Below, in pieces: positions 1,051-24,549 of a stretch of 32,000 nt of DNA; the stretch's first letter is position 1; every line of letters begins with the position of its first letter. The position numbers and the translations under genes were made by a program. Below the pieces are notes generated by a model. That model had not been told where the DNA came from. It ran no database searches and saw only the letters and a program-made list of their open reading frames with translations. This stretch comes from Sinorhizobium meliloti (GTDB lineage: Bacteria > Pseudomonadota > Alphaproteobacteria > Rhizobiales > Rhizobiaceae). Location of the stretch: positions 1,110,001 to 1,142,000 of the forward strand of contig NZ_JAGIOS010000003.1 in the NCBI RefSeq assembly GCF_017876815.1, in the 5' to 3' direction.

Positions 1051-1175
1051 CGGCGAACTCCGTTTAGACGTGGCGCTCTCTTCGTACGGAGCGATCGCAC
1101 GTTATTTTCTCGGAACTATATACGGCGATGATAGGAGCCGACAGTGTCGAGTTTCTGCTCATTCTCCCCCCCGAC

Positions 1176-1200
1176 GGAATAGAAGCCTCTCCGTTCCGTT
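1176..1200 (+). promoter_or_regulatory. Candidate ECF-type promoter P1 (GGAATAGA-N-CCGTT) upstream of the 237-aa gene
   Basis: The sequence is GGAATAGAAGCCTCTCCGTTCCGTT: GGAAT, a spacer of exactly 16 nt, then CGTT, lying 31 nt upstream of the ATG at 1231. The same motif recurs at 2544-2568(-), 3402-3426(-) and 3947-3971(+). Confidence 0.55.
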
Positions 1201-1230
1201 ACTCCCGGGCCATTCAACGGGAGAAGCGGG

Positions 1231-1944
1231 ATGTTAAGTTTCCTGAAGAAAGATCCGCAGGTCATTCAGTTTGTCTGCCATCCGGAAGACGATGGCGTCA
1301 TCGCGCCGCCGCTACCGGCCAAATCGGTTCTGCCGGATTGGTTCCGCCGGCTGCCGGCGGTCGACAAAGGGCACCTGTCGGCAACCAACAACGGTCTGAC
1401 CGTCAAACGCTGCATGCCCTTTCTCGATGCTATGACCACCGGCTGGATTCTGCCGATCGCCGCTACGGTGCGCCTTGACGTCAAGGATGACGGCCGCAGC
1501 GTCGATGCAGGCTGGGAGTTCGACCGGGTGATGGTCAGCAACCACGGCGCCCACCAGGTGGCGGGCAATCCGAAAGAGCCCTCCCCGCCCTGCAAGTTTC
1601 ACAATTACTGGTCGATTCGCACGCCGCCGGGATGGAGTTGCCTGTTTCTGCCGCCGCTAAACCGCCCCGGACAGCACTTCGAATGTGTAGCGGGCATTGT
1701 CGATACGGACAGCTATAGCGCTCATATCCATTTTCCGTTCTTCGCGACGGCGCCGGATGGCCTTCACGTCGTCGAAAAGGGAACGCCGCTTGTACAGGTG
1801 ATACCCTTCCGCCGTGCCGATGCGGCGGTCACGGCAGAAATCCGCGCCGAAACCCGCGCGGATGCTACCGAGCGCGAGGCAATCCATCGGAACACCCTCG
1901 CCGGAGAAGGCTGGTATCGCAAGTCGGCGCGCGCCGCGCGCTAG
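1231..1944 (+). CDS. Conserved hypothetical protein, 237 aa, no signal peptide (possibly a DUF6065-type family; not verifiable here)
   Basis: Clean ORF with a GGGAGAAG SD 5 nt upstream of the ATG and GC-rich third codon positions. It is preceded by promoter motif P1. Its stop codon TAG (1942-1944) lies inside the CTAGAGC start of the dispersed repeat. Confidence 0.7.
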   Translation: MLSFLKKDPQVIQFVCHPEDDGVIAPPLPAKSVLPDWFRRLPAVDKGHLSATNNGLTVKRCMPFLDAMTTGWILPIAATVRLDVKDDGRSVDAGWEFDRVMVSNHGAHQVAGNPKEPSPPCKFHNYWSIRTPPGWSCLFLPPLNRPGQHFECVAGIVDTDSYSAHIHFPFFATAPDGLHVVEKGTPLVQVIPFRRADAAVTAEIRAETRADATEREAIHRNTLAGEGWYRKSARAAR

Positions 1945-2064: not shown

Positions 2065-2107
2065 ACAAGAGAGCGGGGGCCGGAATGTCCGGCCCCCGCT
2101 CTCTTGT
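2065..2107. terminator. Strong GC-rich hairpin, probably a bidirectional terminator between convergent genes
   Basis: The sequence is ACAAGAGAGCGGGGGCCGG-aatgt-CCGGCCCCCGCTCTCTTGT, a perfect stem of about 19 bp. It sits between the 237-aa gene (+) and the NSSS-repeat gene (-). Confidence 0.8.
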
Positions 2108-2131
2108 CGCACCTTCAACTTTTCCGCAATC

Positions 2132-2494
2132 TCAGCGCCCTGTGTGCCACAGCTTGCCTGGACGGTACGACCGGTCTGACCGGTTCGAGCTCGAATTGGA
2201 CGAACGATTCGAGGAGGAGTTCGACGAACTGTTCGAGGATGAATTAGAGCTCGAATTCGAGGAACTGTTGGACGAAGAGTTGGAACTCGAATTGCTGGAG
2301 GAGTTGGAACTCGAATTGGATGAGCTGTTGCCGGCGACTATGATCTCGCCGTCGGTCCGGCCCGTCTGGGCGGTTTGCGTCGAAGTGCGATCCACGCCGG
2401 GAAATAAGGGGGCATATTCCCTTGCTTCGGCCGCAGAGCCCACGAATGCCGCCAGGCCGGCAGCGATTGCCTTGTTCGTCCAGTTCTTTGCCAT
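2132..2494 (-). CDS. Small secreted Asn/Ser tetrapeptide-repeat protein (120 aa; signal peptide followed by 13 NSSS-type units)
   Basis: The start was moved to the ATG at 2494, which has an AAGGAG SD 8 nt upstream. The N-terminus MAKNWTNKAIAAGLAAFVGSAAEA looks like a Sec signal peptide with an AxA cleavage site. Promoter motif P2 lies 50 nt upstream, and the terminator hairpin lies downstream. Confidence 0.7.
   Translation of the reverse strand: MAKNWTNKAIAAGLAAFVGSAAEAREYAPLFPGVDRTSTQTAQTGRTDGEIIVAGNSSSNSSSNSSSNSSSNSSSNSSSNSSSNSSSNSSSNSSSNRSSNSSSNRSDRSYRPGKLWHTGR
2174..2329 (-). repeat. 13 tandem 12-nt (4-codon) units encoding NSSS x10, NRSS, NSSS, NRSD
   Basis: Read directly from the sequence. 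The units use different synonymous Ser and Asn codons (AGC/AGT/TCG/TCC/TCT/TCA; AAC/AAT). The repeat is therefore much more regular at the protein level than at the DNA level. Confidence 0.9.
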
Positions 2495-2543
2495 CTCATC
2501 TACTCCTTGTGAAAACCGGACCGGTTCTTCGGTCCGCAGGAGT

Positions 2544-2568
2544 AACGGCCGGTGCGCGCCTCTATTCC
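2544..2568 (-). promoter_or_regulatory. Candidate ECF-type promoter P2 upstream of the NSSS-repeat gene
   Basis: The minus strand reads GGAATAGAGGCGCGCACCGGCCGTT followed by ACTCC. P1 has the same -35 extension (GGAATAGA) and the same CCGTTACTCC -10 region. The spacer is exactly 16 nt. Confidence 0.55.
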
Positions 2569-2590
2569 ATGATCGCAATTTTTGATGCAC

Positions 2591-3376
2591 TTACCGTTGC
2601 GCACCTTGGAGTTCGCTGAGGGCTCTGGCCTCTTCCGCTGCCTCGAGCGGCGCCCCTGCATCGATCGCGGTCAGATAGGCGTCGAGCGTTTCCGTGGAAG
2701 ATGCAGGAGCATAACCGCCGGTGGCTCCGGGTGCGATGACGGCGAACGTCACGCGCCACTCTGACCCGGCGCGGCAGGCAACCGAAACCACTGTTGAGCG
2801 ATCGTCCGAGTCCAGCTCGAACTCGCGGCACAGCGCCTGCGCATTGTCACGGAATGTCGCAATCGCCCGGAAACGTTGGTCGGAACCTGGCAACCGCCGT
2901 TCCTCGCCTGCGGCGACCGTGGCGAGCGCCTCGTCAAGCGCAGGGCTGCCGATGGCGGCAACGCCCGAGCCACCCTCGATCGGCGCCTCGACACTTCCCC
3001 GCAGCCAATATCCGCCGAACCCCGCAACGACAGCCGCCAGAGAGGCGGCGACGGGAGCGAGCCATCGACTTCTGTGAGATTCGTTCGCAGCGCGGCGCGG
3101 GAAAGGCAGGATGCCCGCGCCCGATACCGAAGGTGGCGACGTCTTCTCCATCACCATTCTTTCGACCGCACGCTTGAGCTCGGAAGGTACCGGCTCATCG
3201 AGCAGCGGCTCCATAGCGGCCTTGGCCGCATGGCGCGTTTCGATGAAGAGTGCCACCCGCGCGACCAGCGCATCATCCGTTTCCATCGCTCGTTCTACTT
3301 CGGCAGCAGTCCCGGTATCGAGCTCGCCGTCGGCGAACCGCATCAGTATCTCATCCGAGAAGTCGGCTCTTGTCAT
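2591..3376 (-). CDS. Anti-sigma factor: N-terminal anti-sigma domain without a zinc motif, one TM helix, and a periplasmic domain of about 135 aa
   Basis: An ATGA overlap couples it to the sigma gene (3373-3376). The N-terminus MTRADFSDEILMRFADGELD is typical of ECF anti-sigma factors. The TM segment is WLAPVAASLAAVVAGFGGYW. Confidence 0.8.
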   Translation of the reverse strand: MTRADFSDEILMRFADGELDTGTAAEVERAMETDDALVARVALFIETRHAAKAAMEPLLDEPVPSELKRAVERMVMEKTSPPSVSGAGILPFPRRAANESHRSRWLAPVAASLAAVVAGFGGYWLRGSVEAPIEGGSGVAAIGSPALDEALATVAAGEERRLPGSDQRFRAIATFRDNAQALCREFELDSDDRSTVVSVACRAGSEWRVTFAVIAPGATGGYAPASSTETLDAYLTAIDAGAPLEAAEEARALSELQGAQR

Positions 3377-3912
3377 TCGTTTGCGCCCTTCATTGACTGA
3401 GAACGTCCGGTCGCCTGTGTTATTCCGGCAGCCTCGGCCAAACTCCTGCGTGCCCTCGCCAGTCGGCTCATGACCGTACCGATTGGAATGCCCATCACAT
3501 CGGCCGCTTCGCGATAGGATAGCTCCTCGACGCAGACCAGAAGAACCACCTCCCGCTGCTCGTCCGGCAATTCGGTGATCGCCTCCGCGACGGTCTTGAG
3601 GGTCAGCCGCGCTTCGGTTTCACGCTCGCCAGATGAACCGGCGATGTCATGACGCTCGGTGATATCGTCCTGCACGCCTGCGGTCTTCTGTCGGCGCACC
3701 TGGTCGATCCAGAGATTACGCAGGATACGGAATATCCAAGCATCAAAGCGCGTGCCCGGCTCGAAGCGCTCGGCACTGGCGAGTGCCCGCTCGCAGGCCG
3801 ACTGCACGAGATCATCGGCAACATCACGCGAGCCGCAGAGCGAGATGGCGAAGCGGCGCAGATTGGGCAGGAACGCCATGAGGCGTTCGCCGACATCTTT
3901 CACCGCATTGCT
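3373..3912 (-). CDS. ECF (sigma-70 group 4) RNA polymerase sigma factor
   Basis: Region 2 (DLVQSACERALASAERFEPGTRFDAWIFRILRNLWIDQVRR) and region 4 (LPDEQREVVLLVCVEELSYREAADVMGIPIGTVMSRLARARRSL) are both present. I prefer the ATG at 3912, which has a GGGAG SD, over the GTG at 3978, which has none. Confidence 0.9.
   Translation of the reverse strand, partial: SNAVKDVGERLMAFLPNLRRFAISLCGSRDVADDLVQSACERALASAERFEPGTRFDAWIFRILRNLWIDQVRRQKTAGVQDDITERHDIAGSSGERETEARLTLKTVAEAITELPDEQREVVLLVCVEELSYREAADVMGIPIGTVMSRLARARRSLAEAAGITQATGRSQSMKGANE
3402..3426 (-). promoter_or_regulatory. Candidate ECF-type promoter P4, located inside the 3' end of the sigma ORF and facing the anti-sigma gene
   Basis: The minus strand reads GGAATAACACAGGCGACCGGACGTT. 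The spacer is exactly 16 nt, and CGTTCT matches P3. The CGTT ends 26 nt upstream of the anti-sigma ATG at 3376. Confidence 0.5.
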
Positions 3913-3946
3913 CATCTCCCGAAACTCCGCAATTTGGCTAGAAGAG

Positions 3947-3971
3947 GGAATAGACCGACGACTCAGCCGTT
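3947..3971 (+). promoter_or_regulatory. Candidate ECF-type promoter P3 upstream of the S8 peptidase gene
   Basis: The sequence is GGAATAGACCGACGACTCAGCCGTT, with a spacer of exactly 16 nt, 87 nt upstream of the ATG at 4058. It lies in the divergent sigma/peptidase intergenic region. Confidence 0.55.
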
Positions 3972-4057
3972 CTGACACAATCTACAGGTAGCGGTCTCAT
4001 CGTCCAATGAATGCGCTATCCTCCTATGAGCGTGACCTAGCCGATTGAGGTTTTCGG

Positions 4058-5458
4058 ATGCTGACCAAGTTGAAACTGGCTCTGATCGCTCCCATTGCTG
4101 CAATCGCACTCGTATCCGGCGACATCCTGGCTCCTGGAAACATGATTGTGCGTGAAGTGATCGGAACCGGTCTCGCCTTGGCCGATGACGACGACGATGA
4201 CGGTGGGAGTGGCGGCAACCGCGGATCGGGCGGTTCCGGCCGCTCCGGCTCCTACGGCGCCGGCGCCGGATGGAGTGGCGGCAAGAGCCTGTTTCCATTC
4301 CGAGAGTTCCTGCCACGTCGAAGCATCCCGCGGCGCTCTCGCGCAGCCGCACCCGCTGCGCCGATACGAGCGCCCGATGAGATCGTCGGGCTGGGTTTCA
4401 GTCCGACGGAACTCGGCGAGTTGACAGCCACGGGCTTCGAGGTCCTCGAACGAAACACGATGACGTCATTCAACGCCGAGGTGATCAAGCTTCGCATTCC
4501 CCGCGGGCTGACTCTGGAAGCCGCTCGGCAGCGGGCGCGCGCCGCGGCCCCTCAGGCGGTGATCGACTTCAACCATTATTTCCGGCCGGAGCAGCATCGC
4601 GATGCCCCGTGCGTCACGAGCGACTGCCTGGCACGGAACGTGATCGGCTGGCCCTCGGCTCAAACGGGGCCTAGCAATTGCTCGGCCGGCGTGCGGATCG
4701 GCCTTGTCGATACGGCGATCAATCCCGATCACATCGCATTCGAGGCTCGCAACTTAGAGATCGTCCGTCTCGTCGACGAAGAATTGCCGGAGTCGGGCAG
4801 ACAGCACGGCACCGCTGTCGCGGCTTTGCTTGTCGGCTCAGCCAGTGGCCGTACGCCGGGCCTGATACCGGGTGGCAAGCTCATCGCCGTGGACGCATTT
4901 CATCGGGCGGGACGGCAAGACGACCGATCCGCCGCCTTCGATCTGGCGCGCGCACTCGACCTCCTTGCTGGGCGTCAGGTTCAGGTCATCAATCTCAGCC
5001 TTGCCGGGCCGCCCAATCTCCTGCTTGAACAGGCGGTCAAAAAGACGGGGGAGCGCGGGATCATCATGGTCGCCGCCGCGGGCAATGACGGTCCAAGAGC
5101 CGAGCCCGTCTATCCGGGTGCCTATGAAGAGGTCATTGCCGTCACCGCGACCGACAGGCGCAAACGGCCTTACCGGCGCGCCGGACGCGGAGAGCATATC
5201 GACTTCGCCGCCCCTGGCGTGGCGGTCTGGACAGCAGCCTCGGTCAGCGGCGCGCGTCCGAAGACGGGAACCTCTTTCGCCGCCCCTTTCGTGACCGCGG
5301 CGGTGGCGATGATGAAAGCATCTGAGCCGGAGCTCGCTGCGGAGATGCTCCGCGACAGGCTGACCGGACATGCCGAAGATCTCGGAGATCCGGGAAAGGA
5401 TCCTGTCTTCGGCTGGGGCTTGTTGAACGCGCGAGCGATTTGCAAGGCGAAGTCCTGA
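4058..5458 (+). CDS. Secreted S8-family (subtilisin-like) serine peptidase
   Basis: The catalytic motifs occur in D-H-S order: GLVDTAINPDH, HGTAVAALLVG, AAAGNDG (oxyanion Asn) and GTSFAAPFVTAAVAMM. The N-terminus has a hydrophobic signal-like segment followed by a DDDDDDGGSGGNRGSGGSGRSGSYGAGAG low-complexity tract. Confidence 0.9.
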   Translation: MLTKLKLALIAPIAAIALVSGDILAPGNMIVREVIGTGLALADDDDDDGGSGGNRGSGGSGRSGSYGAGAGWSGGKSLFPFREFLPRRSIPRRSRAAAPAAPIRAPDEIVGLGFSPTELGELTATGFEVLERNTMTSFNAEVIKLRIPRGLTLEAARQRARAAAPQAVIDFNHYFRPEQHRDAPCVTSDCLARNVIGWPSAQTGPSNCSAGVRIGLVDTAINPDHIAFEARNLEIVRLVDEELPESGRQHGTAVAALLVGSASGRTPGLIPGGKLIAVDAFHRAGRQDDRSAAFDLARALDLLAGRQVQVINLSLAGPPNLLLEQAVKKTGERGIIMVAAAGNDGPRAEPVYPGAYEEVIAVTATDRRKRPYRRAGRGEHIDFAAPGVAVWTAASVSGARPKTGTSFAAPFVTAAVAMMKASEPELAAEMLRDRLTGHAEDLGDPGKDPVFGWGLLNARAICKAKS

Positions 5459-5755: not shown

Positions 5756-6229
5756 ATGGCGAAGAATACGATTTGCCTATGGTACGATAAGGACGCCGAG
5801 GCTGCCGCTCGTTTCTACTGCGAGATCTTTCCTGACAGCAGGGTGAGTGCCGTGCACCGCGCACCCGGTGACTACCCCGCGGGCAAAGAGGGCGACGTGT
5901 TGACGGTCGACTTCAGCGTTGCGGGCATTCCCTGTATCGGCCTCAACGGGGGTCCCGCATTCAAGCACAACGAGGCCTTCTCGTTTCAGATCGCCACCGA
6001 CGATCAGGAAGAAACCGACCGCTACTGGAACGCCATCGTCGGCAATGGCGGCAAGGAAAGCGCCTGCGGCTGGTGCAAGGACAAATGGGGGATTTCCTGG
6101 CAGATCACTCCGCGCGTGCTGACCGACGCGATGGCGGCCGGCGGCGACGAAGCAAAGCGGGCGTTCACGGCGATGATGGACATGAAAAAAATAGACGTCG
6201 CTGCAATCGAGGCGGCGCGGCGCGGTTGA
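5756..6229 (+). CDS. VOC/glyoxalase-superfamily protein (PhnB-like, 3-demethylubiquinone-9 3-methyltransferase-domain family)
   Basis: The start was moved to MAKNTICLWYDKDAEAAARFY. The signature ACGWCKDKWGISWQI is typical of this family. Confidence 0.85.
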   Translation: MAKNTICLWYDKDAEAAARFYCEIFPDSRVSAVHRAPGDYPAGKEGDVLTVDFSVAGIPCIGLNGGPAFKHNEAFSFQIATDDQEETDRYWNAIVGNGGKESACGWCKDKWGISWQITPRVLTDAMAAGGDEAKRAFTAMMDMKKIDVAAIEAARRG

Positions 6230-6305: not shown

Positions 6306-8495
6306 CTAGAAGGAGGTTCCTTGGGCCTTGTCTGTGCCAAGAAGCTGACGAAGTGAATTCTTCGACATCGGCCTGGACAAATGGAATCCCTGCAATTCGT
6401 CACAGCCCAGCTTGCGCAGGATCTCGCTCTGCTCCTCGGTTTCCACGCCTTCGGCGGTGATGCGCAGGCCTTTCGCACGTGCGATGCCGACGATGGACTG
6501 CACGACCGCCACACCACCACCGGGCCGGTCGAAGGCGTGGACGAAAGAGCGATCGATTTTGATCCGGTCGACCTCCAGGCGCTGCAACCGCCCAAATGAA
6601 GAGAATCCCGTACCGAAATCGTCAAGTGCGAACTTGACGCCGAACTCGCGTAGTGCCGTGATGTTTTTTTCGCAGACGCCGGCTTCGTCAAGGAGAGCAG
6701 TTTCGGTGATCTCGAGCTCCAGTCTCGACGGCTCGATCCCGAACTGGCGCAGCAGTGAGAGAACTTGAGCAGCATAATGGCGCTGTGCAAGCTCGACCGC
6801 CGAGACGTTGACTGCAATGTCGAGACCCGGAAATTCACGCGCGGTAGAACAGGCTTCCTTCAGCACGAACGCGCCGAGCCGATCGATGAGGCCGGCAGTC
6901 TCCGCAAGCGGAACGAAGGCATCCGGTGCTATAGGGCCTTTGCTCGGATGCCGCCAGCGAATGAGAGCTTCCAGCGAGCTTATCTCGTGCGACTGCGCAG
7001 AATATACGGGCTGATAGAAGACTTCGAGCTGATTGCCGGCGTCCAGCGCCGCACGCAGATCCTGTTCCAGGTCCCGTTTCGTTCTGATCAGGTCGTCCAT
7101 ATGAGGACCAAAGACTGCGTAGCGGTTCCGCCCGGCCGATTTGGCGTGGTAAAGCGCGATATCGGCCTTCCGCGTGATCTCGATGGGGTCGGCGTCATTT
7201 CCGGTCGCGACCGCCACACCTATCGAAAGCCCGATGAGAATGGGCTGTCCGTCTATCTCGAAAGGTCGGCGGATTGCAGCGATCAGCGCGTCACAGAGTT
7301 TCTCCACCTCGTCCTGGCGGGTACGCGCGACGATGATGGTAAACTCATCACCACCAATTCTGGAAATCGCGGCACCAGCAGCGGTTTCCTTAAGCCGCTT
7401 CGCGACCTCGACCATCAGCCGATCGCCAACGGGATGGCCGAGTGTGTCGTTCACTTGCTTGAAGCGGTCGAGATCGAGATACAGAAGAGCATTGGCTTGA
7501 TCGATTGTCGACGTCGCGACGACCCGCGCCAGCAACCGGTTGAAAGACGCACGGTTGGCGAGCCCGGTCAACGGATCGTGACGCGCCAGATGGTCGAGCT
7601 CCGCCTGGCTTTCCTGCAGGCGTCTCGACCGCCTCCGCAGTACGACACTGAGCGCGCTCGTGAGGGCAAAAAGGAGGGCGCCGGCGACGAGAAGCACAGG
7701 CGCCGTGGCCTTCATCACATCGGCACCGGGTCTGAACGGGAGCCAGGAGAAATATCCTATCGTTTCTCGGGATGATGAAACGATCGGAGCATAGGACCGC
7801 TGTCGACCGAGTTCCGGCAAAACAGAAAAGCGCAGGTCCTCAAAGCCATAATCGTCACCGAGATGCGTCAGGAAATCGCCGTCGAGAAAACGGACCGCTA
7901 AGTGGAGATATTCCCTGCCGGGCTCCTGAACAATATCACCGGTGTCCGACACGATCGGCTTCACGCTGATAATCGCCGGGCGGCCCGCGATGCGTACGAG
8001 ATCGCTCTCGCCGATGGACAGCACCTGCTCACTCGTTCCTCCCTCGTCGCCTGCTGCGAGCCGCTCTTGCAGCTTGGCGATGAGCGGCATTGCTTCGGGT
8101 CCTATGTTGCTGAAAGCTTCCTGCTCGTTGGTCTGGCCGGCAAGAAAGGCGTATAACGGCTTACGATCCGGACTGATCACGAATGCGCCGTCGTGTCGGA
8201 AATAGCTGTTCATCCAGCTACCCAGGTTAGAATCGACCCACCGCGGATCCCATTCCTGCGACACTTTTCTGACGGCGTCATCCCAAACGGTGGCACTCTC
8301 CTGATCATGGGCGATGCTACCTTGCATCTTGGAGATGACAAGCTCGACGAGGTGTTGCTGCCGCTTCACCGCCAAAGCGTCCGATTGCTGCGCCGACCAG
8401 CGGACGGCCAGGTATATGCCTCCCATCAAGGCCATTGCGATGGCCAAGGGCAGCATCCACCTGAAAACCGCGACTTTGCCAGCCACAAACCTCAT
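6306..8495 (-). CDS. Membrane-bound GGDEF-EAL protein (diguanylate cyclase/phosphodiesterase) with a periplasmic CHASE4-like sensor
   Basis: RIGGDEFTII (GGDEF) and LEALIRW (EAL) are both intact. Two TM segments flank a sensor region of about 240 aa. The start was set at the ATG at 8495, which has an AGGAGGAG SD 6 nt upstream. Confidence 0.9.
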   Translation of the reverse strand: MRFVAGKVAVFRWMLPLAIAMALMGGIYLAVRWSAQQSDALAVKRQQHLVELVISKMQGSIAHDQESATVWDDAVRKVSQEWDPRWVDSNLGSWMNSYFRHDGAFVISPDRKPLYAFLAGQTNEQEAFSNIGPEAMPLIAKLQERLAAGDEGGTSEQVLSIGESDLVRIAGRPAIISVKPIVSDTGDIVQEPGREYLHLAVRFLDGDFLTHLGDDYGFEDLRFSVLPELGRQRSYAPIVSSSRETIGYFSWLPFRPGADVMKATAPVLLVAGALLFALTSALSVVLRRRSRRLQESQAELDHLARHDPLTGLANRASFNRLLARVVATSTIDQANALLYLDLDRFKQVNDTLGHPVGDRLMVEVAKRLKETAAGAAISRIGGDEFTIIVARTRQDEVEKLCDALIAAIRRPFEIDGQPILIGLSIGVAVATGNDADPIEITRKADIALYHAKSAGRNRYAVFGPHMDDLIRTKRDLEQDLRAALDAGNQLEVFYQPVYSAQSHEISSLEALIRWRHPSKGPIAPDAFVPLAETAGLIDRLGAFVLKEACSTAREFPGLDIAVNVSAVELAQRHYAAQVLSLLRQFGIEPSRLELEITETALLDEAGVCEKNITALREFGVKFALDDFGTGFSSFGRLQRLEVDRIKIDRSFVHAFDRPGGGVAVVQSIVGIARAKGLRITAEGVETEEQSEILRKLGCDELQGFHLSRPMSKNSLRQLLGTDKAQGTSF

Positions 8496-8586
8496 CCGCA
8501 CTCCTCCTGATAGGCTGCTCATCAATGAGCTGAACGTCTTAAAACGCCGTAAGTAAGCTCCGCACGTGCCGGCGTCATCTTATGAT

Positions 8587-11201: not shown

Positions 11202-11807
11202 ATGAGAACTGTAACAGGGCTCTTTGATGACTATGGCGATGCTCGCGAAGCCGTAAGCGATCTGGAAGCGGCAGGCGTACCTTCGGATGACATCAGCATT
11301 GTCGCGAACAACATTGGCGATCGATACTCCACCGATGGCTCGAACGCGGCGGAAGGCGCGGGTACCGGAGCCGGCCTAGGCGCTGCCGGGGGCGGCGTTG
11401 TCGGTCTTCTGACGGGGCTCGGTCTGATGGCCATCCCTGGGGTCGGCCCCGTAGTGGCTGCCGGGTGGCTTGCCTCCACTGCGGCCGGCGCTGCGGCGGG
11501 CGCAATCGCCGGTGGGGCAGCCGGAGGCCTGATCGGTGCACTGACGGAATCCGGGGTTGATGAAGAAGACGCCCATGTTTACGCCGAGGGCGTTCGCCGG
11601 GGGGGCACGTTGGTCACAGCAAGGGTCGAGGACAGTGTTGCACCACGAGCAGAAGCGATCCTGAAACAGCGGAAAATCGTGGACCCAGCGGCCCGCAGGA
11701 GCATCTATGCCCAGGAAGGATGGTCGCGATTTGACGAAAATGCCGACCCGTACACGCTCGATCAGGTCGATCGAGAGCGGGAGCGGTACCGCAGCATGAT
11801 GCCGTAA
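11202..11807 (+). CDS. General stress protein (YflT/GsiB-17M-like domains flanking a Gly/Ala-rich membrane segment)
   Basis: GGGAGAA SD. The N-terminal region is TVTGLFDDYGDAREAVSDLEAAGVPSDDISIVAN, and a second related domain reads EEDAHVYAEGVRRGGTLVTARV. A central glycine-zipper-like stretch separates them. Confidence 0.8.
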   Translation: MRTVTGLFDDYGDAREAVSDLEAAGVPSDDISIVANNIGDRYSTDGSNAAEGAGTGAGLGAAGGGVVGLLTGLGLMAIPGVGPVVAAGWLASTAAGAAAGAIAGGAAGGLIGALTESGVDEEDAHVYAEGVRRGGTLVTARVEDSVAPRAEAILKQRKIVDPAARRSIYAQEGWSRFDENADPYTLDQVDRERERYRSMMP

Positions 11808-11917
11808 CGGCTGGCTTACGTCCCGCCGATGCGAGGGCGCGAGGACGGCCCGCCCTGCCGCCAGCGCTGAAGCATCGACTCAAATGGTGGCGCGCCCCAT
11901 GTCCCCTTGGGGCGTGC

Positions 11918-12205
11918 TTATTTGATCTTCAGAAGTAGCATCTTGCCGGCCATGGTGATGCCGTGAGCCGACTCCTCTGGCGGAACATCCGTATTCAGCG
12001 CTTTCACGAGCCTGTGGTCGCGCAGCTCGTTGAGAGTTGCGGTCGTCAGGAACTTGATCTTCTGAGGCCGTTCCTTGAAGCGGTCCTGTTTTGCATAGGT
12101 GACTTGAGCATTCAGGTGCGTCCATCTCTTCCCCGCCTGAGGATGGACGTCGCCGTCCTTAGCGAGCTTCAGACCGCGGATCTGGGTTGGCGTCAATTCA
12201 ATCAT
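11918..12205 (-). CDS. Hypothetical 95-aa protein, translationally coupled to the desaturase gene
   Basis: A TAATG overlap joins the desaturase stop and this ORF's ATG, sharing base 12205. Third codon positions are GC-rich. A hairpin, CGCCCCA-N8-TGGGGCG (11893-11914), lies just downstream. Confidence 0.55.
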   Translation of the reverse strand: MIELTPTQIRGLKLAKDGDVHPQAGKRWTHLNAQVTYAKQDRFKERPQKIKFLTTATLNELRDHRLVKALNTDVPPEESAHGITMAGKMLLLKIK

Positions 12206-13272
12206 TACTTCGTCTTTCGTCCATCTTCAGTAAGGGAGCGGCGCAGCGACCCAGCGGCGTCGTGGAATGAAACTAGCCTCCGGCGCCGGTCGTCCCAGAG
12301 CACGAGCCTGACGCATTTGAGGCTGTCCCACAGGGTGATCCGACCGATGCCGGCAAGTTGCGGATGGTCACGCAGTACTTCCGGCAGACGGTAGTACGGA
12401 ATCCGGCTGGACAGGTGGTGCACGTGATGGATGCCGATATTGCCAGTGAGCCACCGCAGCACCGGCGGAAGATCGTAATGCGAGGCGCCATGCAGCGCCG
12501 CCTGGGGAAACCGCCAATCCTCGCCCGCCGACCAGTGGGTCTCCTCGAACTGGTGCTGCACATAAAAGAGCCAAACGCCGGCTGCACCTGCGAGCAGCAC
12601 GACCGGAAGATGGATCAGGAGAAACGTTCCCAAACCGACGGCCCAAACCATCAAGGCGGCCAGCGTGACGATCGCAAAATTCGTCGCCATGGTCGAAATC
12701 CATGGCAGAGCACCCGAGTTCATCATTCCGAACGGCAGGCGCTGCTTGAACAGAAAGAGCCAGGCCGGCCCGATCCCGAACATGACAAGCGGGTGCCGGT
12801 ACAGCCGGTAGCCGAGGCGTTTGATCGGCGAAAGGGCACAGTATTCGGTAATCGTCAGCGTGGTGATGTCACCAACCCCGCGTTCGTCGAGATTACCTGC
12901 AGTCGCATGATGGGCGGCATGCGCACGCCTCCAATAATCGTAAGGGGTCAGGGTCAGGACCCCGAGCAGGCGGCCGGTCCAGTCATCGAGCCCACGACGG
13001 GAGAAAAACGAGCCGTGGCCGCAATCGTGCTGGATCATGAACAATCGGAGCAGAAAGGCGCTGGCAGGAAGGATTGCAATCAGCCCGGGCCAGAAGCCGT
13101 TGGCCAGCGAAAAGCAGGCCGCTGCCCAGAAGATGGCGAAAGGGACGAGAGTGACGAACAGTTCGAAGGCGCTACGCCCCAGGCGGGGCTGCCGGTATTT
13201 AGCCAGCGTCTTCAACCACGCTCCAGCATTGTCTTCAACGAGTGAAGCGGGTGGATAGACATGTGCGCTCAT
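12205..13272 (-). CDS. Membrane fatty-acid desaturase (three histidine boxes)
   Basis: The three histidine boxes are HDCGH, WRRAHAAHH and GIHHVHH. The start was set at the ATG at 13272 (MSAHVY...), because the longer ORF overlaps the upstream gene. Confidence 0.85.
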   Translation of the reverse strand: MSAHVYPPASLVEDNAGAWLKTLAKYRQPRLGRSAFELFVTLVPFAIFWAAACFSLANGFWPGLIAILPASAFLLRLFMIQHDCGHGSFFSRRGLDDWTGRLLGVLTLTPYDYWRRAHAAHHATAGNLDERGVGDITTLTITEYCALSPIKRLGYRLYRHPLVMFGIGPAWLFLFKQRLPFGMMNSGALPWISTMATNFAIVTLAALMVWAVGLGTFLLIHLPVVLLAGAAGVWLFYVQHQFEETHWSAGEDWRFPQAALHGASHYDLPPVLRWLTGNIGIHHVHHLSSRIPYYRLPEVLRDHPQLAGIGRITLWDSLKCVRLVLWDDRRRRLVSFHDAAGSLRRSLTEDGRKTK

Positions 13273-13357
13273 TATAACCGGTCCGTTTTTCGCTCGCCCC
13301 GCGATCCTCCGCCAGGGCAACAGCTGCGCCCGTGGATCGGGTGCAGGTGTTGAAGTG

Positions 13358-13738
13358 TTACGCCCTACGGGCCTTGCGGGCGGCGTAACGGCGATCACGC
13401 TCTGCCTTGCGGGCCGCCTCGTCCGCCACGACGCGCGAGACCCGATTGGCGATTTCTGCCTGGCGGGCTTCGGCTTCAGCCCTTTGCTCGGCCTCGGCGG
13501 CCGCGGCCGACGCAGCGGCTTCTGCCAGGATTCGCTCGTTCTCGGCGGTCTTCAGCGCTTCGCGCTCGGCACGGCGGGCATCCCTGGCACGGCTAGCCGC
13601 TTCACGAGCAGCCAGTTTTTCCCGCATTTCAGGGTCGGTCGGCTTGGGAGCGGATGCAAATTTTGTCAGGAGCTGACGCTTTGCATCTGCTGCGGCATTG
13701 CGTCGTTCGGCAAAGCCGTTGTCGCTCGGGTGTCTCAA
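13358..13738 (-). CDS. Ala/Arg/Glu-rich coiled-coil protein (DUF6481-like)
   Basis: TTG start with an AAGGAA SD about 7 nt upstream. The composition is highly charged and helical (AAREAASRARDARRAEREALKTAENERILAEAAA...). Confidence 0.7.
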   Translation of the reverse strand: MRHPSDNGFAERRNAAADAKRQLLTKFASAPKPTDPEMREKLAAREAASRARDARRAEREALKTAENERILAEAAASAAAAEAEQRAEAEARQAEIANRVSRVVADEAARKAERDRRYAARKARRA

Positions 13739-13775
13739 TCGTTATTCCTTCGAATCGTTTGGTCGCGTAGAATGG

Positions 13776-13803
13776 GAAAAGGCCAGACATTCGCCTGGCC
13801 TCT
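13776..13803 (-). terminator. Rho-independent terminator of cspA
   Basis: The minus strand reads AGGCCAG-gcgaatgt-CTGGCCT followed by TTTCCC. It lies 55 nt downstream of the cspA stop codon. Confidence 0.6.
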
Positions 13804-13858
13804 TCGAACCTCTTGCCGCGATGCCAGTACATCCGTGGTCATCAGCGGCGAAAAAGCA

Positions 13859-14068
13859 TCAGGCAGCGCGCAGCTGGCCTGCGGACATCTTGCCCGACTT
13901 ATTGTCGCGCTCGAGCTCAAAGCCGAGCTTCTGACCTTCGACAATCGAATTCATGCCGGCGCGTTCAACAGCAGAGATGTGAACGAACACATCGGCGCTG
14001 CCGTCGTCAGGCGCGATGAAACCGAAGCCCTTGGTGGAATTGAACCATTTAACTGTGCCAGTGGTCAT
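13859..14068 (-). CDS. cspA: Cold-shock protein (CspA family, 69 aa)
   Basis: [34 protein letters not shown] carries the RNP1 and RNP2 motifs. An AAGAAAGGG SD precedes the start. Confidence 0.95.
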
Positions 14069-14206
14069 AACGAACCCTTTCTTAGCAACATAGATCACCG
14101 CTGGGCGACGCACAGCGGGGTTTCGACTTTTGAGAGAGGGAAGTTCGTCAAGAGACGCGCAAAGCGCAGCAAAACAAATATCGGCAAACAAAGTATCGAT
14201 GCCCTT

Positions 14207-14234
14207 TCATAGACGAGAGCGGCGGCCACGTCAA
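14207..14234 (-). promoter_or_regulatory. Candidate housekeeping-type promoter of cspA with a long 5' UTR
   Basis: The minus strand reads TTGACG-N16-CTATGA, close to the rhizobial CTTGAC-N17-CTATAT consensus. It would give a leader of about 130 nt, as is typical for cspA genes. Confidence 0.4.
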
Positions 14235-14317
14235 CTTTTTGTTTCCAGAAAAGTCGAATACAACTAAGGATAGCAGATCCGAAGGGTTACGTTCGTTCCC
14301 TGCCGGGGCATGCGCGG

Positions 14318-14400
14318 TTAGAGCACTTCCAGGTGTAACGGTTTTCCGTCCGGAAATGCACAGCTTCAAAGATTAGAGCGTTCCTTGTTAGATGAACGCG
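14318..14400 (+). repeat. Dispersed intergenic repeat, copy B
   Basis: The sequence is GTTAGAGCACTTCCAGG...TTTTCCGTCCGGAAATGCACAGCTTCAAAGATTAGAGCGTTCC..GATGAAC. The hairpin arms are 14323-14333 and 14350-14359. Confidence 0.6.
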
Positions 14401-14681
14401 GCGTGCGTACCGAAAGTCGGCAAACGAGCTGAGTATACCGCTACGCTTCGACGCTTTTTCAACTAACTAACGTCACAGTCTCCTATCCGGCGTAAAAAGG
14501 AAATTCAGGTATGTCAAAATATTCCTTGTATTTTTACCCAACGTTTTGCGCGAAGTTCGGACACTAATTTCACGTCACGCCCAGCTTCGAATAATATTTC
14601 TTGGCACCTCTATTAATCGCGCGCTGGCGATGCTATTTAGGAGTTGCAGCCGCCCTATACGCTGGCCGCAGAAAGAATCCC

Positions 14682-16681
<2,000 letters not shown>

Positions 16682-16754
16682 GAGCAGCGCCTGAACCGTC
16701 CGGCCGGGTGGCCAGGCGGCGAAACTCGAACAACGACGGACGGGGAGACTTCCA

Positions 16755-17144
16755 GTGGCCATGCAGAACAGCAAGACGTCAATCACCCAGCAATTTGGCA
16801 GCTACAAGCCATCCAAGGCGATCCTCGTATGGGCGTGCGTCGCCACGGCAGCCGCGACGATGATCGTCGGCTTCAACTGGGGCGGGTGGGTGACCGGCGG
16901 CACGTCTCGCACAGCGGCAGCGGCCGCAGCCGACATTGCACGCGGCGAACTGGCATCCGCCATATGCGTCGAGCGGTTTAACGCCGCCCCGGACGCGGCC
17001 GCAAAACTGATCGAGTTCAAGGCAATCACTGACGGTTACAAGAAGCGTCAATTCGTGGAGGCCGGCGGTTGGGCGACGATGCCGGGCGAGACCGCACCCG
17101 ACAGCCGCAGCGTTCAAGGTTGCGCCACCGCTCTCGCCATCTGA
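16755..17144 (+). CDS. Hypothetical membrane-anchored protein (start GTG 16755 or ATG 16761)
   Basis: GGGGAGA SD at 16742-16748. It has one TM helix (AILVWACVATAAATMIVGFNWGGW) and coding-like codon usage. Confidence 0.5.
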   Translation: MAMQNSKTSITQQFGSYKPSKAILVWACVATAAATMIVGFNWGGWVTGGTSRTAAAAAADIARGELASAICVERFNAAPDAAAKLIEFKAITDGYKKRQFVEAGGWATMPGETAPDSRSVQGCATALAI

Positions 17145-17214
17145 GGGCAAAGCATGAAAAGCGCTCCGGTGTTGGTTTGGAGCGCTCCCAATTATCAGAT
17201 CAGGAGAACGTCAA

Positions 17215-17382
17215 ATGATTCGTTTCGAGAGAAAGCCCGATCCGCAGCCCTCGCTGAAGGAAGCCGAAAACAAACGTACCAAGCAAATAAGCGAAGCCGC
17301 GAAGGAAGAGAACAAGAAATCGGGCACAACTGGAGCGCCGCGTCGCGCGCCTCAAGCGGCTGATGACGACCGGCTCATTTGA
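17215..17382 (+). CDS. Possible 55-aa charged small protein (below the ORF-track cutoff)
   Basis: An AGGAGA SD lies 7 nt upstream of the ATG at 17215. The product is MIRFERKPDPQPSLKEAENKRTKQISEAAKEENKK.... A 9-bp GC hairpin follows at 17414-17436. It competes with the 69-aa ORF at 17154-17363 in another frame. Confidence 0.3.
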   Translation: MIRFERKPDPQPSLKEAENKRTKQISEAAKEENKKSGTTGAPRRAPQAADDDRLI

Positions 17383-17413
17383 GAGCATATTGGACGCCTC
17401 GGCCGTTTCTCAT

Positions 17414-17436
17414 TGGCCCGCCCCTACGGCGGGCCA
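17414..17436 (+). terminator. GC-rich hairpin (possible terminator or attenuator; no U-tract)
   Basis: The sequence is TGGCCCGCC-cctac-GGCGGGCCA. Confidence 0.3.
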
Positions 17437-17471
17437 GCTTCATCAAATTCAACGTCAAGAGGATCGCATCG

Positions 17472-17615
17472 ATGGCTAAAGGACAAGTGAGAGGCAACCG
17501 CGAGGCGCGGAAGCCGAAAAAGGAAAAGGCGCCGGTGAAGGTAGAGACGAGCTTCACCAATCAGCTCAAGAATGCCGAGAAAAGCAGCCCACAGGGTGGC
17601 AAACACAAAGGCTGA
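17472..17615 (+). CDS. Small basic protein, 47 aa (MAKGQVRGNREARKPKKEKAPVK...)
   Basis: The internal ATG has an AAGAGGA SD about 9 nt upstream. The Lys/Arg-rich N-terminus resembles small conserved alphaproteobacterial proteins as I remember them. Confidence 0.5.
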   Translation: MAKGQVRGNREARKPKKEKAPVKVETSFTNQLKNAEKSSPQGGKHKG

Positions 17616-17666
17616 GCCCAAGGGAACGGCGGTGGCGCTGGAAGACTTCGGAGCCGAGTGCAACGG

Positions 17667-18194
17667 CTATTTTGGCGCTGCGGCCGCGGTTTCGCCCGGT
17701 GGCAAGATCCTGAACATAAAGGTTGATACCTTTTCCCCTGGCTTAAACGGGCCCGGCACCTGATGGCTTACCGGCTTCAGGCTTTGAAGGAATGCTGCAA
17801 TTGCGCCTGCGTCTTCTTTTGTGAGTTGCGCAAATGCGTGCCACGGCATGATCGGCGCCAGCATGCGGCCGTCGGGGCGCTGCCCGGTCTGAATGGCAGT
17901 CACAATCTGCTCCCTAGTCCAGCTGCCGATGCCGGTCTCCTTGTCGGGCGTGATGTTGCGACCGATGAAAACACCCTCCCCGGGAATTTCGAAGCCTACA
18001 TCCGACCCGCCGAGAAAGCGTGAGCTGTCCGGCTTTCCGAAAAAATATCCCGGTGTGTGGCAGTCGTTGCAGCCGCCCATTGTGACGAGATATTCCCCTC
18101 GCGCAATTGCGGGATCGTCGGCAGCGGCCCCGAGAGGCTGTAGCCCAAAAGCAGAGGTGGCGAAACATGCGAACCCAATGCCCAACCGAAACAT
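17667..18194 (-). CDS. Periplasmic mono-haem c-type cytochrome
   Basis: The signal peptide is MFRLGIGFACFATSAFG. There is a single CNDCH haem-binding motif and a distal PIMPW Met. Confidence 0.85.
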   Translation of the reverse strand: MFRLGIGFACFATSAFGLQPLGAAADDPAIARGEYLVTMGGCNDCHTPGYFFGKPDSSRFLGGSDVGFEIPGEGVFIGRNITPDKETGIGSWTREQIVTAIQTGQRPDGRMLAPIMPWHAFAQLTKEDAGAIAAFLQSLKPVSHQVPGPFKPGEKVSTFMFRILPPGETAAAAPK

Positions 18195-18419
18195 GCTTAC
18201 CTCCCTGAGGCTCGCTGCTGAAGCAAACTGAATATCATAACGGCGTTGCCCTATATATTAGTCATTTTGAATTATCGGGAAGTCGACGAATCTTCCCTTT
18301 GGCTCATACTGACGGAGGTCGCACCAATCGGCGACCACCTCCTCGGAAAGTGTGGCCAGTAGGGCGCTCCTGAGCCAGCGCCTGCAGCGCCTTTGCGATA
18401 ACAAATTACGATGTCGTAG

Positions 18420-18758
18420 CTAATGTTGCTGGCCAATAGGCGACAAGAGCGCCTGCTTCAATTGCTGGCGTACCTCATCAGGCTGCTCCAGCAGCGCAGT
18501 CGCGAGTGTTCTAAGCTCCCGCCTCAGCCCATAGAGCTGATCCAGCAGCGCAAGGATGATCGGCACAGCGTCATCGTTGACGTTCATGTCGCGCCGGAGT
18601 TCACAAACCAGGCGGATGCGAGCGACGTCGACGTCGTCAAATGAGGGCCCGCGCTCGCCTTGAGCCGGCACGATCCAGCCGCTGTGCACCCACTGGCGCA
18701 GCTGTTTGCGGGTTACAATGTCGAACTGTTCAAGGACTTGCCTCTCCGTCAATTTCAT
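18420..18758 (-). CDS. cbpM: Chaperone modulator CbpM (MerR-like HTH)
   Basis: An ATGA overlap couples it to the upstream DnaJ-like gene. The sequence pattern FDDVDVARIRLVCELRRDMNVNDDAVPIILALLDQLYGLRRELR is CbpM-like. Confidence 0.8.
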   Translation of the reverse strand: MKLTERQVLEQFDIVTRKQLRQWVHSGWIVPAQGERGPSFDDVDVARIRLVCELRRDMNVNDDAVPIILALLDQLYGLRRELRTLATALLEQPDEVRQQLKQALLSPIGQQH

Positions 18759-19672: not shown

Positions 19673-19865
19673 CGAACACCTCCACCAATTTAACGGGCAC
19701 GTCGAATGCACGGCCGCGGCAAACTGCGCGTCAACATTTCTGTTTAATTTAGCCCGCAGGAAAAGGTGCGCAAGATTGAGACGACGGCAGCGTAGCGGGT
19801 CAAAGGGTTTGGCGGCCTGAGGAGTACGCCAGGCCCGAGAGCTCGCTGGTCTACTCTCCACTAAG

Positions 19866-20580: not shown

Positions 20581-20607
20581 GCGTCAAGCCCGTAAAAGCA
20601 TTGGACG

Positions 20608-24545: not shown

Positions 24546-24549
24546 GAAA

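What the first reader, a model, noticed from the sequence alone, without database searches (positions are those of the whole stretch)
1231..1944. Cytoplasmic 237-aa protein of unknown function as a predicted ECF target
The ORF has a good SD, coding-like codon usage and promoter motif P1 31 nt upstream, but no signal peptide or TM helix.

Conserved-looking blocks are KRCMPFLDAMTTGWILP, FHNYWSIRTPPGWSCLFLPPLNRP, GIVDTDSY and GTPLVQVIPFRR. They resemble an uncharacterised family I recall as DUF6065-like, which I could not verify.

An ECF regulon that pairs an intracellular protein of unknown fold with a secreted repeat peptide and a secreted protease hints at a modification or maturation role. 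That link is pure inference.
Basis: inference. Interest (0 to 1): 0.5.

Follow-up and report, generated by a model that had tools for sequence, protein, structure and literature searches.

The report
Stress-induced dUTPase-like protein with repeat-protein partner
This gene is the known top target of the Sinorhizobium meliloti stress sigma factor RpoE6; its protein has the fold of a nucleotide-cleaving enzyme (dUTPase) and almost always sits beside a gene for an exported protein made of Asn-Ser-Ser-Ser repeats, so the two probably work together in a way nobody has described.

Summary
The ORF at 1231-1944 (+) is real. The window is S. meliloti pSymA and the ORF is the SMa0148 orthologue. Its status as an ECF target is already published: it is the strongest RpoE6 (ECF26) target, and the mapped promoter matches window 1174-1212 exactly (Lang et al. 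2018).

New here:
- **Fold.** A confident AlphaFold model (pLDDT 94.8) has a trimeric-dUTPase-like fold. dUTPase motifs III and IV are kept, and the Gly-rich motif V is missing.
- **Relatives.** Relatives at 40-56% identity are phage and archaeal-virus genes. Several lie beside ribonucleotide reductase, DNA polymerase or thymidylate synthase genes.
- **Partner gene.** In 80 species-level loci the most constant neighbour is a gene for a Sec-exported (NSSS)n repeat protein. It is adjacent in 65 of 69 loci with full flanks. The sigma factor and the protease are less constant.
- **Regulation.** An ECF26-type promoter precedes the DUF6065 gene in 66 of 79 loci.
- **Annotation.** The repeat gene (SMa0146) appears to be annotated on the wrong strand.

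Function is untested. My best inference is a nucleotide-dependent cytoplasmic enzyme that works with the repeat protein.

The parts
1176..1200 (+). RpoE6 (ECF26) promoter of the DUF6065 gene: -35 GGAATA at 1176-1181 and -10 CGTT at 1197-1200. The published mapped promoter string equals 1174-1212. I read its last base (1212) as the transcription start.
   Evidence: Lang et al. 2018, Table 1. The same motif lies within 200 nt upstream of the orthologue in 66 of 79 loci.
1219..1223 (+). Shine-Dalgarno sequence GGGAG, 7 nt before the ATG
   Evidence: Read directly from the sequence.
1231..1944 (+). DUF6065 protein (SMa0148 orthologue), 237 aa, cytoplasmic, dUTPase-like beta-barrel core at about residues 60-195. 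Motif III-like GIVDTDSY is at residues 155-162 and motif IV-like GTPLVQVIP at 184-192. Cys61 and Tyr229 are invariant.
2065..2107 (.). Perfect 19-bp hairpin (5-nt loop) between the two convergent genes. Likely a bidirectional terminator.
   Evidence: Read from the sequence. The consensus scan did not call it because there is no T-run.
2132..2494 (-). Exported (NSSS)n repeat protein, 120 aa. It has a Sec-type signal peptide (MAKNW...AAEA), a linker, the block IIVAG, 12 NSSS units (nt 2186-2329) and a basic/aromatic tail. This is the true gene at the SMa0146 position.
   Evidence: - Eleven distinct 12-mers encode 12 near-identical units, and all six Ser codons are used.
- Homologues with signal peptides lie next to DUF6065 in 65 of 69 loci.
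2544..2568 (-). ECF26-type promoter of the NSSS gene (GGAATAGAGGCGCGCACCGGCCGTT), followed by the SD AAGGAG and the ATG at 2494
   Evidence: The motif is conserved upstream of the NSSS gene in most loci.
2591..3376 (-). Anti-sigma factor EcfR6 (SMa0144)
3373..3915 (-). ECF26 sigma factor RpoE6 (SMa0143). The PGAP start is 3915, while the longest ORF runs to a GTG at 3978. An internal ecfR6 promoter motif lies at 3402-3426 (-).
3947..3971 (+). RpoE6 promoter of the S8 protease gene
   Evidence: published promoter string.
4058..5458 (+). Exported S8 (subtilisin-family) serine protease SMa0142. It is an RpoE6 target and co-occurs with the sigma/anti-sigma pair.

Best explanation
**Shown.** The ORF encodes the SMa0148 orthologue, a cytoplasmic DUF6065 protein. 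It is transcribed directly from an RpoE6 (ECF26) promoter.

**Shown by model and comparison.** Its core has the beta-barrel fold of trimeric dUTPases. It keeps counterparts of dUTPase motif III (G-I-V-D-T-D-x-Y, which holds the catalytic Asp and the sugar-stacking Tyr in Dut) and of motif IV (the Gln in PLVQVI). It lacks the Gly-rich motif V. In its place is a C-terminal helical arm with an invariant Tyr.

**Shown by comparative genomics.** It forms a two-gene module with a Sec-exported (NSSS)n repeat protein. The module keeps its adjacency across several orders of bacteria. Its controller varies between an ECF26 sigma/anti-sigma pair (with the S8 protease in the same number of loci) and a HAMP histidine kinase with an OmpR-type regulator. 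In three loci the repeat gene lies immediately downstream of MacAB-type exporter genes on the same strand.

**Inferred mechanism.**
1. An envelope signal releases RpoE6.
2. RpoE6 switches on both genes.
3. The DUF6065 protein, probably a trimer, binds a pyrimidine nucleotide (an NTP, a dNTP or a nucleotide-linked donor).
4. It carries out chemistry at the alpha-phosphate. This serves the production, modification or safe handling of the repeat protein before Sec export.
5. The repeat protein is then released to the periplasm or outside, where the S8 protease may process it.
For: **Identity and regulation**
- 100% DNA identity to S. meliloti pSymA.
- Published induction and a promoter identical to the window.
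- Motif enrichment in the window.
- The motif lies upstream of orthologues in 66 of 79 loci, including 26 loci with no sigma gene in the fetched locus (8 kb either side).

**Fold**
- Model pLDDT 94.8, pTM 0.88.
- 78 PDB matches with E <= 1e-3, and the top 50 are all trimeric dUTPases.
- In the viral structure library, uncharacterised phage proteins come first and dUTPases follow.
- Seven of eight weak profile hits to PDB sequences are dUTPases aligned over motifs III-IV.
- hhalign against E. coli Dut aligns GIVDTDSY with GLIDSDY and GTPLVQVI with GERIAQMI. The Dut sequence used is exact.

**Nucleotide context of phage relatives**
- Next to ribonucleotide reductase in HF1, VOLN27B and cyanophage S-RIM4.
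- Next to DNA polymerase A, thymidylate synthase and a YfbR-like nucleotidase.
- Next to DNA polymerase A or endonuclease VII.

**Coupling to the NSSS protein**
- Adjacent in 65 of 69 loci with full flanks. Orientations include convergent and same-strand (NSSS upstream or downstream).
- Same promoter type on both genes.
- NSSS-then-DUF6065 on one strand next to a two-component system in about a dozen loci.
- The NSSS gene lies directly downstream of MacA/ABC/MacB genes on the same strand in L050, L073 and L074.
Against: - No biochemical data exist for any DUF6065 protein. No paper in the searched library mentions the family.
- The Pfam dUTPase model does not hit any of the 56 family members. 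Identity to dUTPases is only 11-18%.
- Motif V is absent and motif II is changed (PLNR in place of PRS).
- HF1-group viruses already encode Dcd and ThyX, so the viral protein is not simply the missing dUTPase.
- Two phage contexts point elsewhere. They hold SAM methyltransferases, a 2OG-Fe(II) oxygenase and a tail-fibre gene.
- The viral relatives have no NSSS partner. This argues that the substrate is a general small molecule and not the repeat protein itself.
- The model coordinates could not be inspected, so I did not test whether Cys61, His105, Asp158 and Asp160 cluster in space.
Confidence: 0.4

Rival explanations
1. It is a free-nucleotide-pool enzyme, for example a dNTP/NTP pyrophosphatase that cleans or depletes a pyrimidine nucleotide during envelope stress or phage attack. 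On this view the NSSS gene is only a co-regulated neighbour.
For: - dUTPase fold and motifs III/IV.
- Phage and archaeal-virus relatives at 40-46% identity sit beside RNR, DNA polymerase and thymidylate synthase genes. That level of conservation fits a universal small-molecule substrate.
Against: - It does not explain why the NSSS gene stays adjacent in 65 of 69 loci through changes of orientation and of regulator.
- There is no PADLOC defence hit.
- Motif V, which trimeric dUTPases need for efficient hydrolysis (established knowledge), is missing.
Confidence: 0.25
2. It is a non-catalytic partner: a cytoplasmic chaperone, export pilot or immunity protein for the aggregation-prone Asn/Ser-rich precursor. 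It could also be a regulator acting by protein binding, as staphylococcal phage dUTPases do with the Stl repressor.
For: - Strict pairing with a low-complexity exported protein.
- In Inquilinus and R. leguminosarum the gene lies directly downstream of the sigma/anti-sigma pair on the same strand.
- dUTPases that moonlight as regulators appear among the structural matches (Stl complexes).
Against: - A set of polar residues typical of an active site is invariant or nearly so across cellular and viral members that have no NSSS partner: Cys61, His105, Gln109, Lys122, Asp160, Arg195, Tyr229.
- The gene is also kept where no sigma gene lies in the fetched locus (8 kb either side).
Confidence: 0.15
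3. It is a leftover phage gene that happens to sit in the RpoE6 island and has no dedicated cellular role.
For: The family is mostly phage-borne (phrog_7084, E = 3e-51). The gene is on a megaplasmid.
Against: - 64-87% identity is kept across 80 species of several orders.
- The promoter and the partner gene are conserved.
- No phage genes flank it.
- It is the most strongly induced RpoE6 target.
Confidence: 0.03

Closest known systems
SMa0148 of S. meliloti Rm1021 (RpoE6 regulon; Lang et al. 2018, PMC6180224)
   Same: It is the same gene. The promoter string and the RT primer match the window exactly. The best database relative, an S. meliloti protein, is 99% identical.
   Different: Nothing differs. 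The paper lists it only as 'conserved hypothetical protein' and gives no fold, family or partner analysis.
Trimeric dUTPase (Dut, Pfam PF00692; e.g. E. coli 1DUD, M. tuberculosis 1SLH, Drosophila 3ECY)
   Same: The beta-barrel fold matches (Foldseek E = 4e-5, target TM up to 0.72). Motif III (G-x-x-D-x-D-Y) and the motif IV Gln align.
   Different: - Identity is 11-18%.
- The Pfam dUTPase model gives no hit.
- The Gly-rich motif V is absent.
- Motif II reads PLNR where Dut has PRS.
- It has an extra 55-residue Pro-rich N-terminal segment and a C-terminal helical arm.
- Cys61 is invariant and His105 nearly so; E. coli Dut has no obvious counterpart to either.
- Activity is untested.
dCTP deaminase (Dcd), the other branch of the dUTPase superfamily
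   Same: From established knowledge only: it shares the superfamily fold and has no classical motif V. It did not appear among the top 50 PDB matches, which are all dUTPases.
   Different: By eye, I see no counterpart of the catalytic Glu that follows motif III in Dcd. The segment here reads SAHIHFPFF.
phrog_7084 / DUF6065 proteins of haloarchaeal tailed viruses (HF1 HfxHF1_475, HF2, HRTV, HCTV) and cyanophages
   Same: They belong to the same family: E = 3e-51 to the PHROG and 40-46% identity over 80% of the length.
   Different: They are viral and lie next to RNR and other DNA-metabolism genes. The annotated flanks show no repeat-protein partner, ECF sigma or protease gene. HF1's protein is longer (294 aa).
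HMW1C/HMW1 of Haemophilus influenzae (cytoplasmic modification of an exported protein before Sec export). This is a resemblance in how it might work, taken from established knowledge.
   Same: A cytoplasmic enzyme encoded next to a Sec-exported substrate rich in Asn-x-Ser/Thr.
   Different: HMW1C is a GT41 glycosyltransferase with an unrelated fold. The Asn-x-Ser pattern is not strict here, since NSNS units are common. No modification has been shown.

Membership tests
Pfam DUF6065 (PF19541) | Score at or above the curated gathering score of the family model | tested here: met
   36.8 bits against a cut-off of 26.6, residues 58-206. 48 of 56 aligned relatives also hit the model.
RpoE6 / ECF26 regulon | ECF26-type promoter (GGAATA, about 15-17 nt, CGTT) at the right distance from the start codon | tested here: met
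   The motif is at 1176-1200. It is identical to the published mapped promoter and conserved in 66 of 79 orthologous loci.
RpoE6 / ECF26 regulon | Transcript induced when the sigma factor is overexpressed | not testable with these tools
   Published for the identical gene in Rm1021: log2 fold change 6.5, the largest in the RpoE6 set.
dUTPase superfamily (trimeric dUTPase / dCTP deaminase fold) | dUTPase-like beta-barrel fold | tested here: met
   Model pLDDT 94.8. 78 PDB matches with E <= 1e-3, and the top 50 are all dUTPases. Viral dUTPases also match.
dUTPase superfamily (trimeric dUTPase / dCTP deaminase fold) | Motif III, G-(I/V/L)-(I/V)-D-x-D-Y, with the catalytic Asp | tested here: met
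   GIVDTDSY (155-162) aligns with GLIDSDY of E. coli Dut and with AGVIDEDY of chlorella-virus Dut. Asp160 is conserved in at least 90% of the family.
Canonical dUTPase (Dut, PF00692) | Motif V, the C-terminal Gly-rich arm (R-G-x-x-G-F-G-S-T-G) | tested here: not met
   No Gly-rich C-terminal motif is present. The C-terminus is helical (residues 209-233) with an invariant Tyr229.
Canonical dUTPase (Dut, PF00692) | Motifs II (P-R-S) and IV (R-I-A-Q) | tested here: inconclusive
   PPLNR (139-143) and PLVQVI (186-191) sit at the equivalent places. The Gln aligns, but the Arg and Ser residues are not conserved.
Canonical dUTPase (Dut, PF00692) | Hit to the family's sequence model | tested here: not met
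   None of the 56 members hits PF00692 even at E <= 1. Profile hits to PDB dUTPases reach only E = 0.4-1.8.
Canonical dUTPase (Dut, PF00692) | Homotrimer with dUTP hydrolysis to dUMP + PPi | not testable with these tools
   Only a monomer model was available, and there are no biochemical data.
Known anti-phage defence proteins (PADLOC-DB) | Hit to a defence-system model | tested here: not met
   No hit for the DUF6065 protein, the NSSS protein or EcfR6. The only strong hit is S8 to a generic subtilase model; RpoE6 gives two marginal hits (E about 0.004-0.005).

The most novel reading that the evidence does not exclude
A phage-derived, dUTPase-fold enzyme has been recruited by alphaproteobacteria to modify a Sec-exported (NSSS)n polypeptide covalently before export. 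It would use a nucleotide donor, for example to add a nucleotide, a phosphate or a sugar-phosphate to Ser or Asn. That would be a new class of protein-modifying enzyme and a new kind of secreted, modified repeat polymer under envelope-stress control.
Probability: 0.12. Interest if true: 0.8.

Novelty: new variant of a known kind. Interest (0 to 1): 0.5.

Why it matters
RpoE6 has the second-largest ECF regulon in S. meliloti, yet it has no known signal or role. Its strongest target was a blank 'conserved hypothetical'.

Three results turn that blank into experiments that can be done in a genetically tractable model organism:
- The protein has a dUTPase-like fold.
- Its relatives are mostly viral.
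- It has a near-obligate partner, an exported (NSSS)n protein whose gene seems to be annotated on the wrong strand.

More broadly, DUF6065 has about 2,000 clusters at 50% identity and many are phage-borne. A first activity for it would annotate many viral genes. It could also reveal a dUTPase-superfamily branch with new chemistry.

Tried and rejected
- **Sequence search of PDB with the single protein:** no hit even at E = 10.
- **NCBIfam:** no family.
- **PADLOC:** no defence model.
- **Literature:** nothing for 'DUF6065' or 'NSSSNSSS'. The ECF re-classification paper adds nothing on this neighbourhood. The HF1-group genomics paper has no hit for the search terms used that concerns this viral homologue.
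- **Cupin / 2OG-oxygenase fold** (my first guess from the His/Asp-containing blocks): rejected, because the top 50 structural matches are all dUTPases.
- **N-glycosylation sequon reading of NSSS:** weakened, because NSNS units that break the Asn-x-Ser/Thr pattern are common.
- **Type I secretion link in Ensifer adhaerens:** rejected as coincidence. By gene order, the adjacent ABC/HlyD genes look like part of a Has-type haem-uptake operon with a TonB-dependent receptor.
- **First gene-clustering attempt:** it picked antisense ORFs in these GC-rich loci. I redid it with a GC3-based frame choice.
- **Rfam and sigma-70 promoter scans** of the region: nothing found.
- **Not possible:** I could not inspect model coordinates or predict a complex, so active-site geometry and trimer formation are untested.

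Full report
**1.

The ORF runs from ATG 1231 to the stop at 1944 and encodes 237 aa. GGGAG lies 7 nt upstream of the ATG. Its base composition by codon position (GC1/2/3 = 0.65/0.48/0.73) matches the neighbouring genes, and no segment is hydrophobic enough for a membrane helix or signal peptide. The promoter-like motif GGAATA-N15-CGTT is at 1176-1200. The pattern occurs five times in the window against 0.15 expected by chance, and four of the five copies lie in this gene cluster. The recollected family is right: Pfam DUF6065 scores 36.8 bits against a cut-off of 26.6.

**2. Identity and regulation are already published**

The first 6.3 kb of the window are 100% identical to pSymA-type megaplasmids of Sinorhizobium meliloti. 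An annotated relative lists these genes in order:
- malonyl-CoA synthase
- GreA
- DUF6065 family protein
- a hypothetical protein
- anti-sigma factor
- sigma factor
- S8 peptidase
- VOC protein
- EAL protein

Lang et al. 2018 (PMC6180224) overexpressed each ECF sigma factor of strain Rm1021. SMa0148 was the most induced RpoE6 target (log2 fold change 6.5). Their mapped promoter string is identical to window 1174-1212, and their SMa0148 primer matches the window exactly. RpoE6 belongs to group ECF26. Its other local targets are ecfR6, the S8 protease SMa0142, SMa0139 and SMa0146. So 'predicted ECF target' is correct but not new. The paper assigns no function to SMa0148 and found no phenotype for the sigma-factor mutants.

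**3. The fold is dUTPase-like**

Sequence searches against solved structures and NCBIfam gave nothing. A search of 1.84 billion representative proteins found 2,078 clusters related to the query. A 56-sequence alignment gave an AlphaFold model with mean pLDDT 94.8 and pTM 0.88.

Foldseek against the PDB returned 78 matches with E <= 1e-3, and the top 50 are all trimeric dUTPases. Against viral models, uncharacterised phage proteins come first and annotated dUTPases follow.

Sequence agrees, though weakly:
- Seven of eight sub-threshold profile hits in the PDB are dUTPases aligned over the same 40 residues.
- hhalign pairs GIVDTDSY with GLIDSDY (motif III) and GTPLVQVI with GERIAQMI (motif IV) of E. 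coli Dut. I checked that Dut sequence as exact.

The differences from canonical dUTPases are clear:
- The Pfam dUTPase model hits no family member.
- The Gly-rich motif V is missing.
- Motif II is altered.
- There is a 55-residue N-terminal extension and a C-terminal helical arm.
- Cys61 and Tyr229 are invariant. His105, Gln109, Lys122, Asp160 and Arg195 are nearly so.

I therefore place it in the dUTPase superfamily as a divergent branch and not as a dUTPase.

**4. The wider family is largely viral**

The protein matches phrog_7084 at E = 3e-51. Relatives at 40-46% identity occur in haloarchaeal tailed viruses of the HF1 group, and weaker ones occur in cyanophages.

Contexts that point to DNA and nucleotide metabolism:
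- Next to ribonucleotide reductase in HF1, VOLN27B and S-RIM4.
- Next to DNA polymerase A, thymidylate synthase, a YfbR-like nucleotidase and an exonuclease on a 79-kb phage contig.
- Next to DNA polymerase A or endonuclease VII on others.

Contexts that point elsewhere:
- Two relatives are coupled to SAM methyltransferases, a 2OG-Fe(II) oxygenase and a tail-fibre gene.
- HF1-group viruses already carry Dcd and ThyX.

Nucleotide binding fits the evidence. A plain dUTPase role does not.

**5. The conserved partner is the repeat protein**

A scan of one genome per species returned 80 loci with orthologues at 64-87% identity. They come from Sinorhizobium, Ensifer, Mesorhizobium, Aminobacter, Rhizobium, Hyphomicrobium, Bauldia, Inquilinus, Dongia and a Hydrogenophaga MAG.

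Neighbour frequencies:
- The sigma or anti-sigma gene is in the locus in 42 of 80, and so is the S8 protease.
- An ORF made of NSSS-type repeats lies next to the DUF6065 gene in 65 of 69 loci with full flanks.
- In two more loci it lies 3-4 kb away. Only two loci lack it.

Every one of these complete ORFs has the same layout:
- a Sec-type signal peptide;
- a variable linker;
- a short hydrophobic block just before the repeats (IIVAG, LQFAG and similar);
- roughly 10 to 27 units of N-x-S-S;
- a short tail, either basic/aromatic or DDD.

In the window, 12 units are encoded by 11 different 12-mers using all six serine codons. Selection therefore acts on this reading frame.

Orientation varies (convergent, or on the same strand with NSSS upstream or downstream), and so does the control system:
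- The ECF26 motif precedes the DUF6065 gene in 66 of 79 loci. Twenty-six of these have no sigma gene in the fetched locus (8 kb either side). The motif also precedes the NSSS gene in most loci.
- About a dozen loci lack the motif. They carry a HAMP histidine kinase and an OmpR-type regulator next to NSSS and DUF6065 on one strand.
- In three Hyphomicrobium-like loci the NSSS gene lies directly downstream of, and on the same strand as, the genes of a MacA/ABC/MacB-type exporter. Such exporters expel periplasmic substrates, which suggests the repeat protein ends up outside the cell.

**6. What it most likely does**

The shown parts are the RpoE6-dependent transcription, the cytoplasmic location, the dUTPase-superfamily fold with motifs III and IV retained, and the near-obligate pairing with an exported (NSSS)n protein.

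The mechanism is inferred. I think the protein is a nucleotide-dependent enzyme whose product or activity serves the making, modification or safe handling of the repeat protein before Sec export. The S8 protease may process that protein afterwards.

I put about 0.4 on this combined reading. The rivals are:
- 0.25 on a pure nucleotide-pool role with the neighbour only co-regulated.
- 0.15 on a non-catalytic chaperone, immunity or regulator role.
- Very little on a phage remnant.

The main arguments against a direct action on the repeat protein are two. The viral relatives at 40-46% identity have no such partner. And no protein-modifying enzyme with this fold is known to me.

**7. Novelty**

The regulation is known. 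I found no description of the fold assignment, the viral affinity of DUF6065, the conserved module with the repeat protein, or the likely wrong-strand annotation of SMa0146 in the searched literature. I rate the finding as a new variant of a known kind and of moderate interest. It is a well-defined, testable lead in a model organism, but it is not yet a demonstrated new mechanism.

Noticed in passing
window 2085-2590, both strands: SMa0146 seems to be annotated on the wrong strand. PGAP (CP140882) calls the plus-strand ORF, an irregular acidic ELELEF-type sequence. The SMa0146 RT primer of Lang et al. (window 2380-2397, a minus-strand oligo) can only prime on a plus-strand RNA. No SMa0146 promoter appears among the promoter-table rows retrieved. 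The minus-strand frame has an ECF26 promoter, an SD, a signal peptide and codon-level evidence of selection.
   Followed up: yes
window 2065-2107: A perfect 19-bp inverted repeat with a 5-nt loop lies between the convergent DUF6065 and NSSS genes. It is probably a shared terminator. It has no T-run, so the consensus scan missed it.
   Followed up: partly
window 7889-7914 (-): A fifth exact match to GGAATA-N16-CGTT lies inside the GGDEF/EAL gene (6306-8525, -). It could be an internal RpoE6 promoter or a chance match.
   Followed up: no
L051-L055, L058, L064, L065, L068, L070: In these genomes the NSSS and DUF6065 genes lie on one strand with NSSS upstream, and the ECF26 motif is absent. Most of them have a HAMP histidine kinase and/or an OmpR-type regulator next to the pair (not seen in the short contig L068). 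The same module is wired to a different sensor.
   Followed up: partly
L050, L073, L074: The NSSS gene lies directly downstream of, and on the same strand as, a MacA-like adaptor, an ABC ATPase and a MacB-type permease (MacB_PCD + FtsX). This suggests the repeat protein is expelled from the periplasm to the outside.
   Followed up: partly
L063, L066, L069, L076, L077, L080, L081: An RTX calcium-binding repeat protein of about 350-430 aa lies divergently next to the DUF6065 gene, with type I secretion ABC/HlyD genes in several of these loci. Its relation to the module is unknown.
   Followed up: partly
window 4184-4282 (within the S8 gene, 4058-5458 +): After its signal peptide the S8 protease has an Asp/Gly/Ser-rich low-complexity stretch (DDDDDDGGSGGNRGSGGSGRSGSYGAGAGWSGG). 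The Inquilinus orthologues have a longer version.
   Followed up: no
window 5756-6229 (+); L027 6120-6506: A VOC/glyoxalase-superfamily gene recurs beside the sigma factor: SMa0139 here (PF06983) and a Glyoxalase_6 protein in Inquilinus. It may be another recurrent regulon member.
   Followed up: no
window 3915-3978 (-): The longest rpoE6 ORF starts at a GTG at 3978 and overlaps the divergent S8 promoter (3947-3971). PGAP uses the start at 3915, which fits the promoter layout better.
   Followed up: partly
window 11202-27135: The rest of the window carries stress-type genes:
- a YflT-like protein (11202-11807)
- a fatty-acid desaturase (12205-13398, -)
- a GroEL paralogue (14888-16681)
- a DnaJ-like protein (18755-19861, -)
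- a multi-PAS HWE histidine kinase (20608-23169, -)
- a DUF772 transposase fragment (26467-27135, -)
   Followed up: no
P0168, P0193, P0197, P0221, P0234, P0257, P0261; L093: Some DUF6065 proteins are tandem duplications of about 450-480 aa. One sits on a contig with an XPG/FEN1-type nuclease and a Fic protein.
   Followed up: partly
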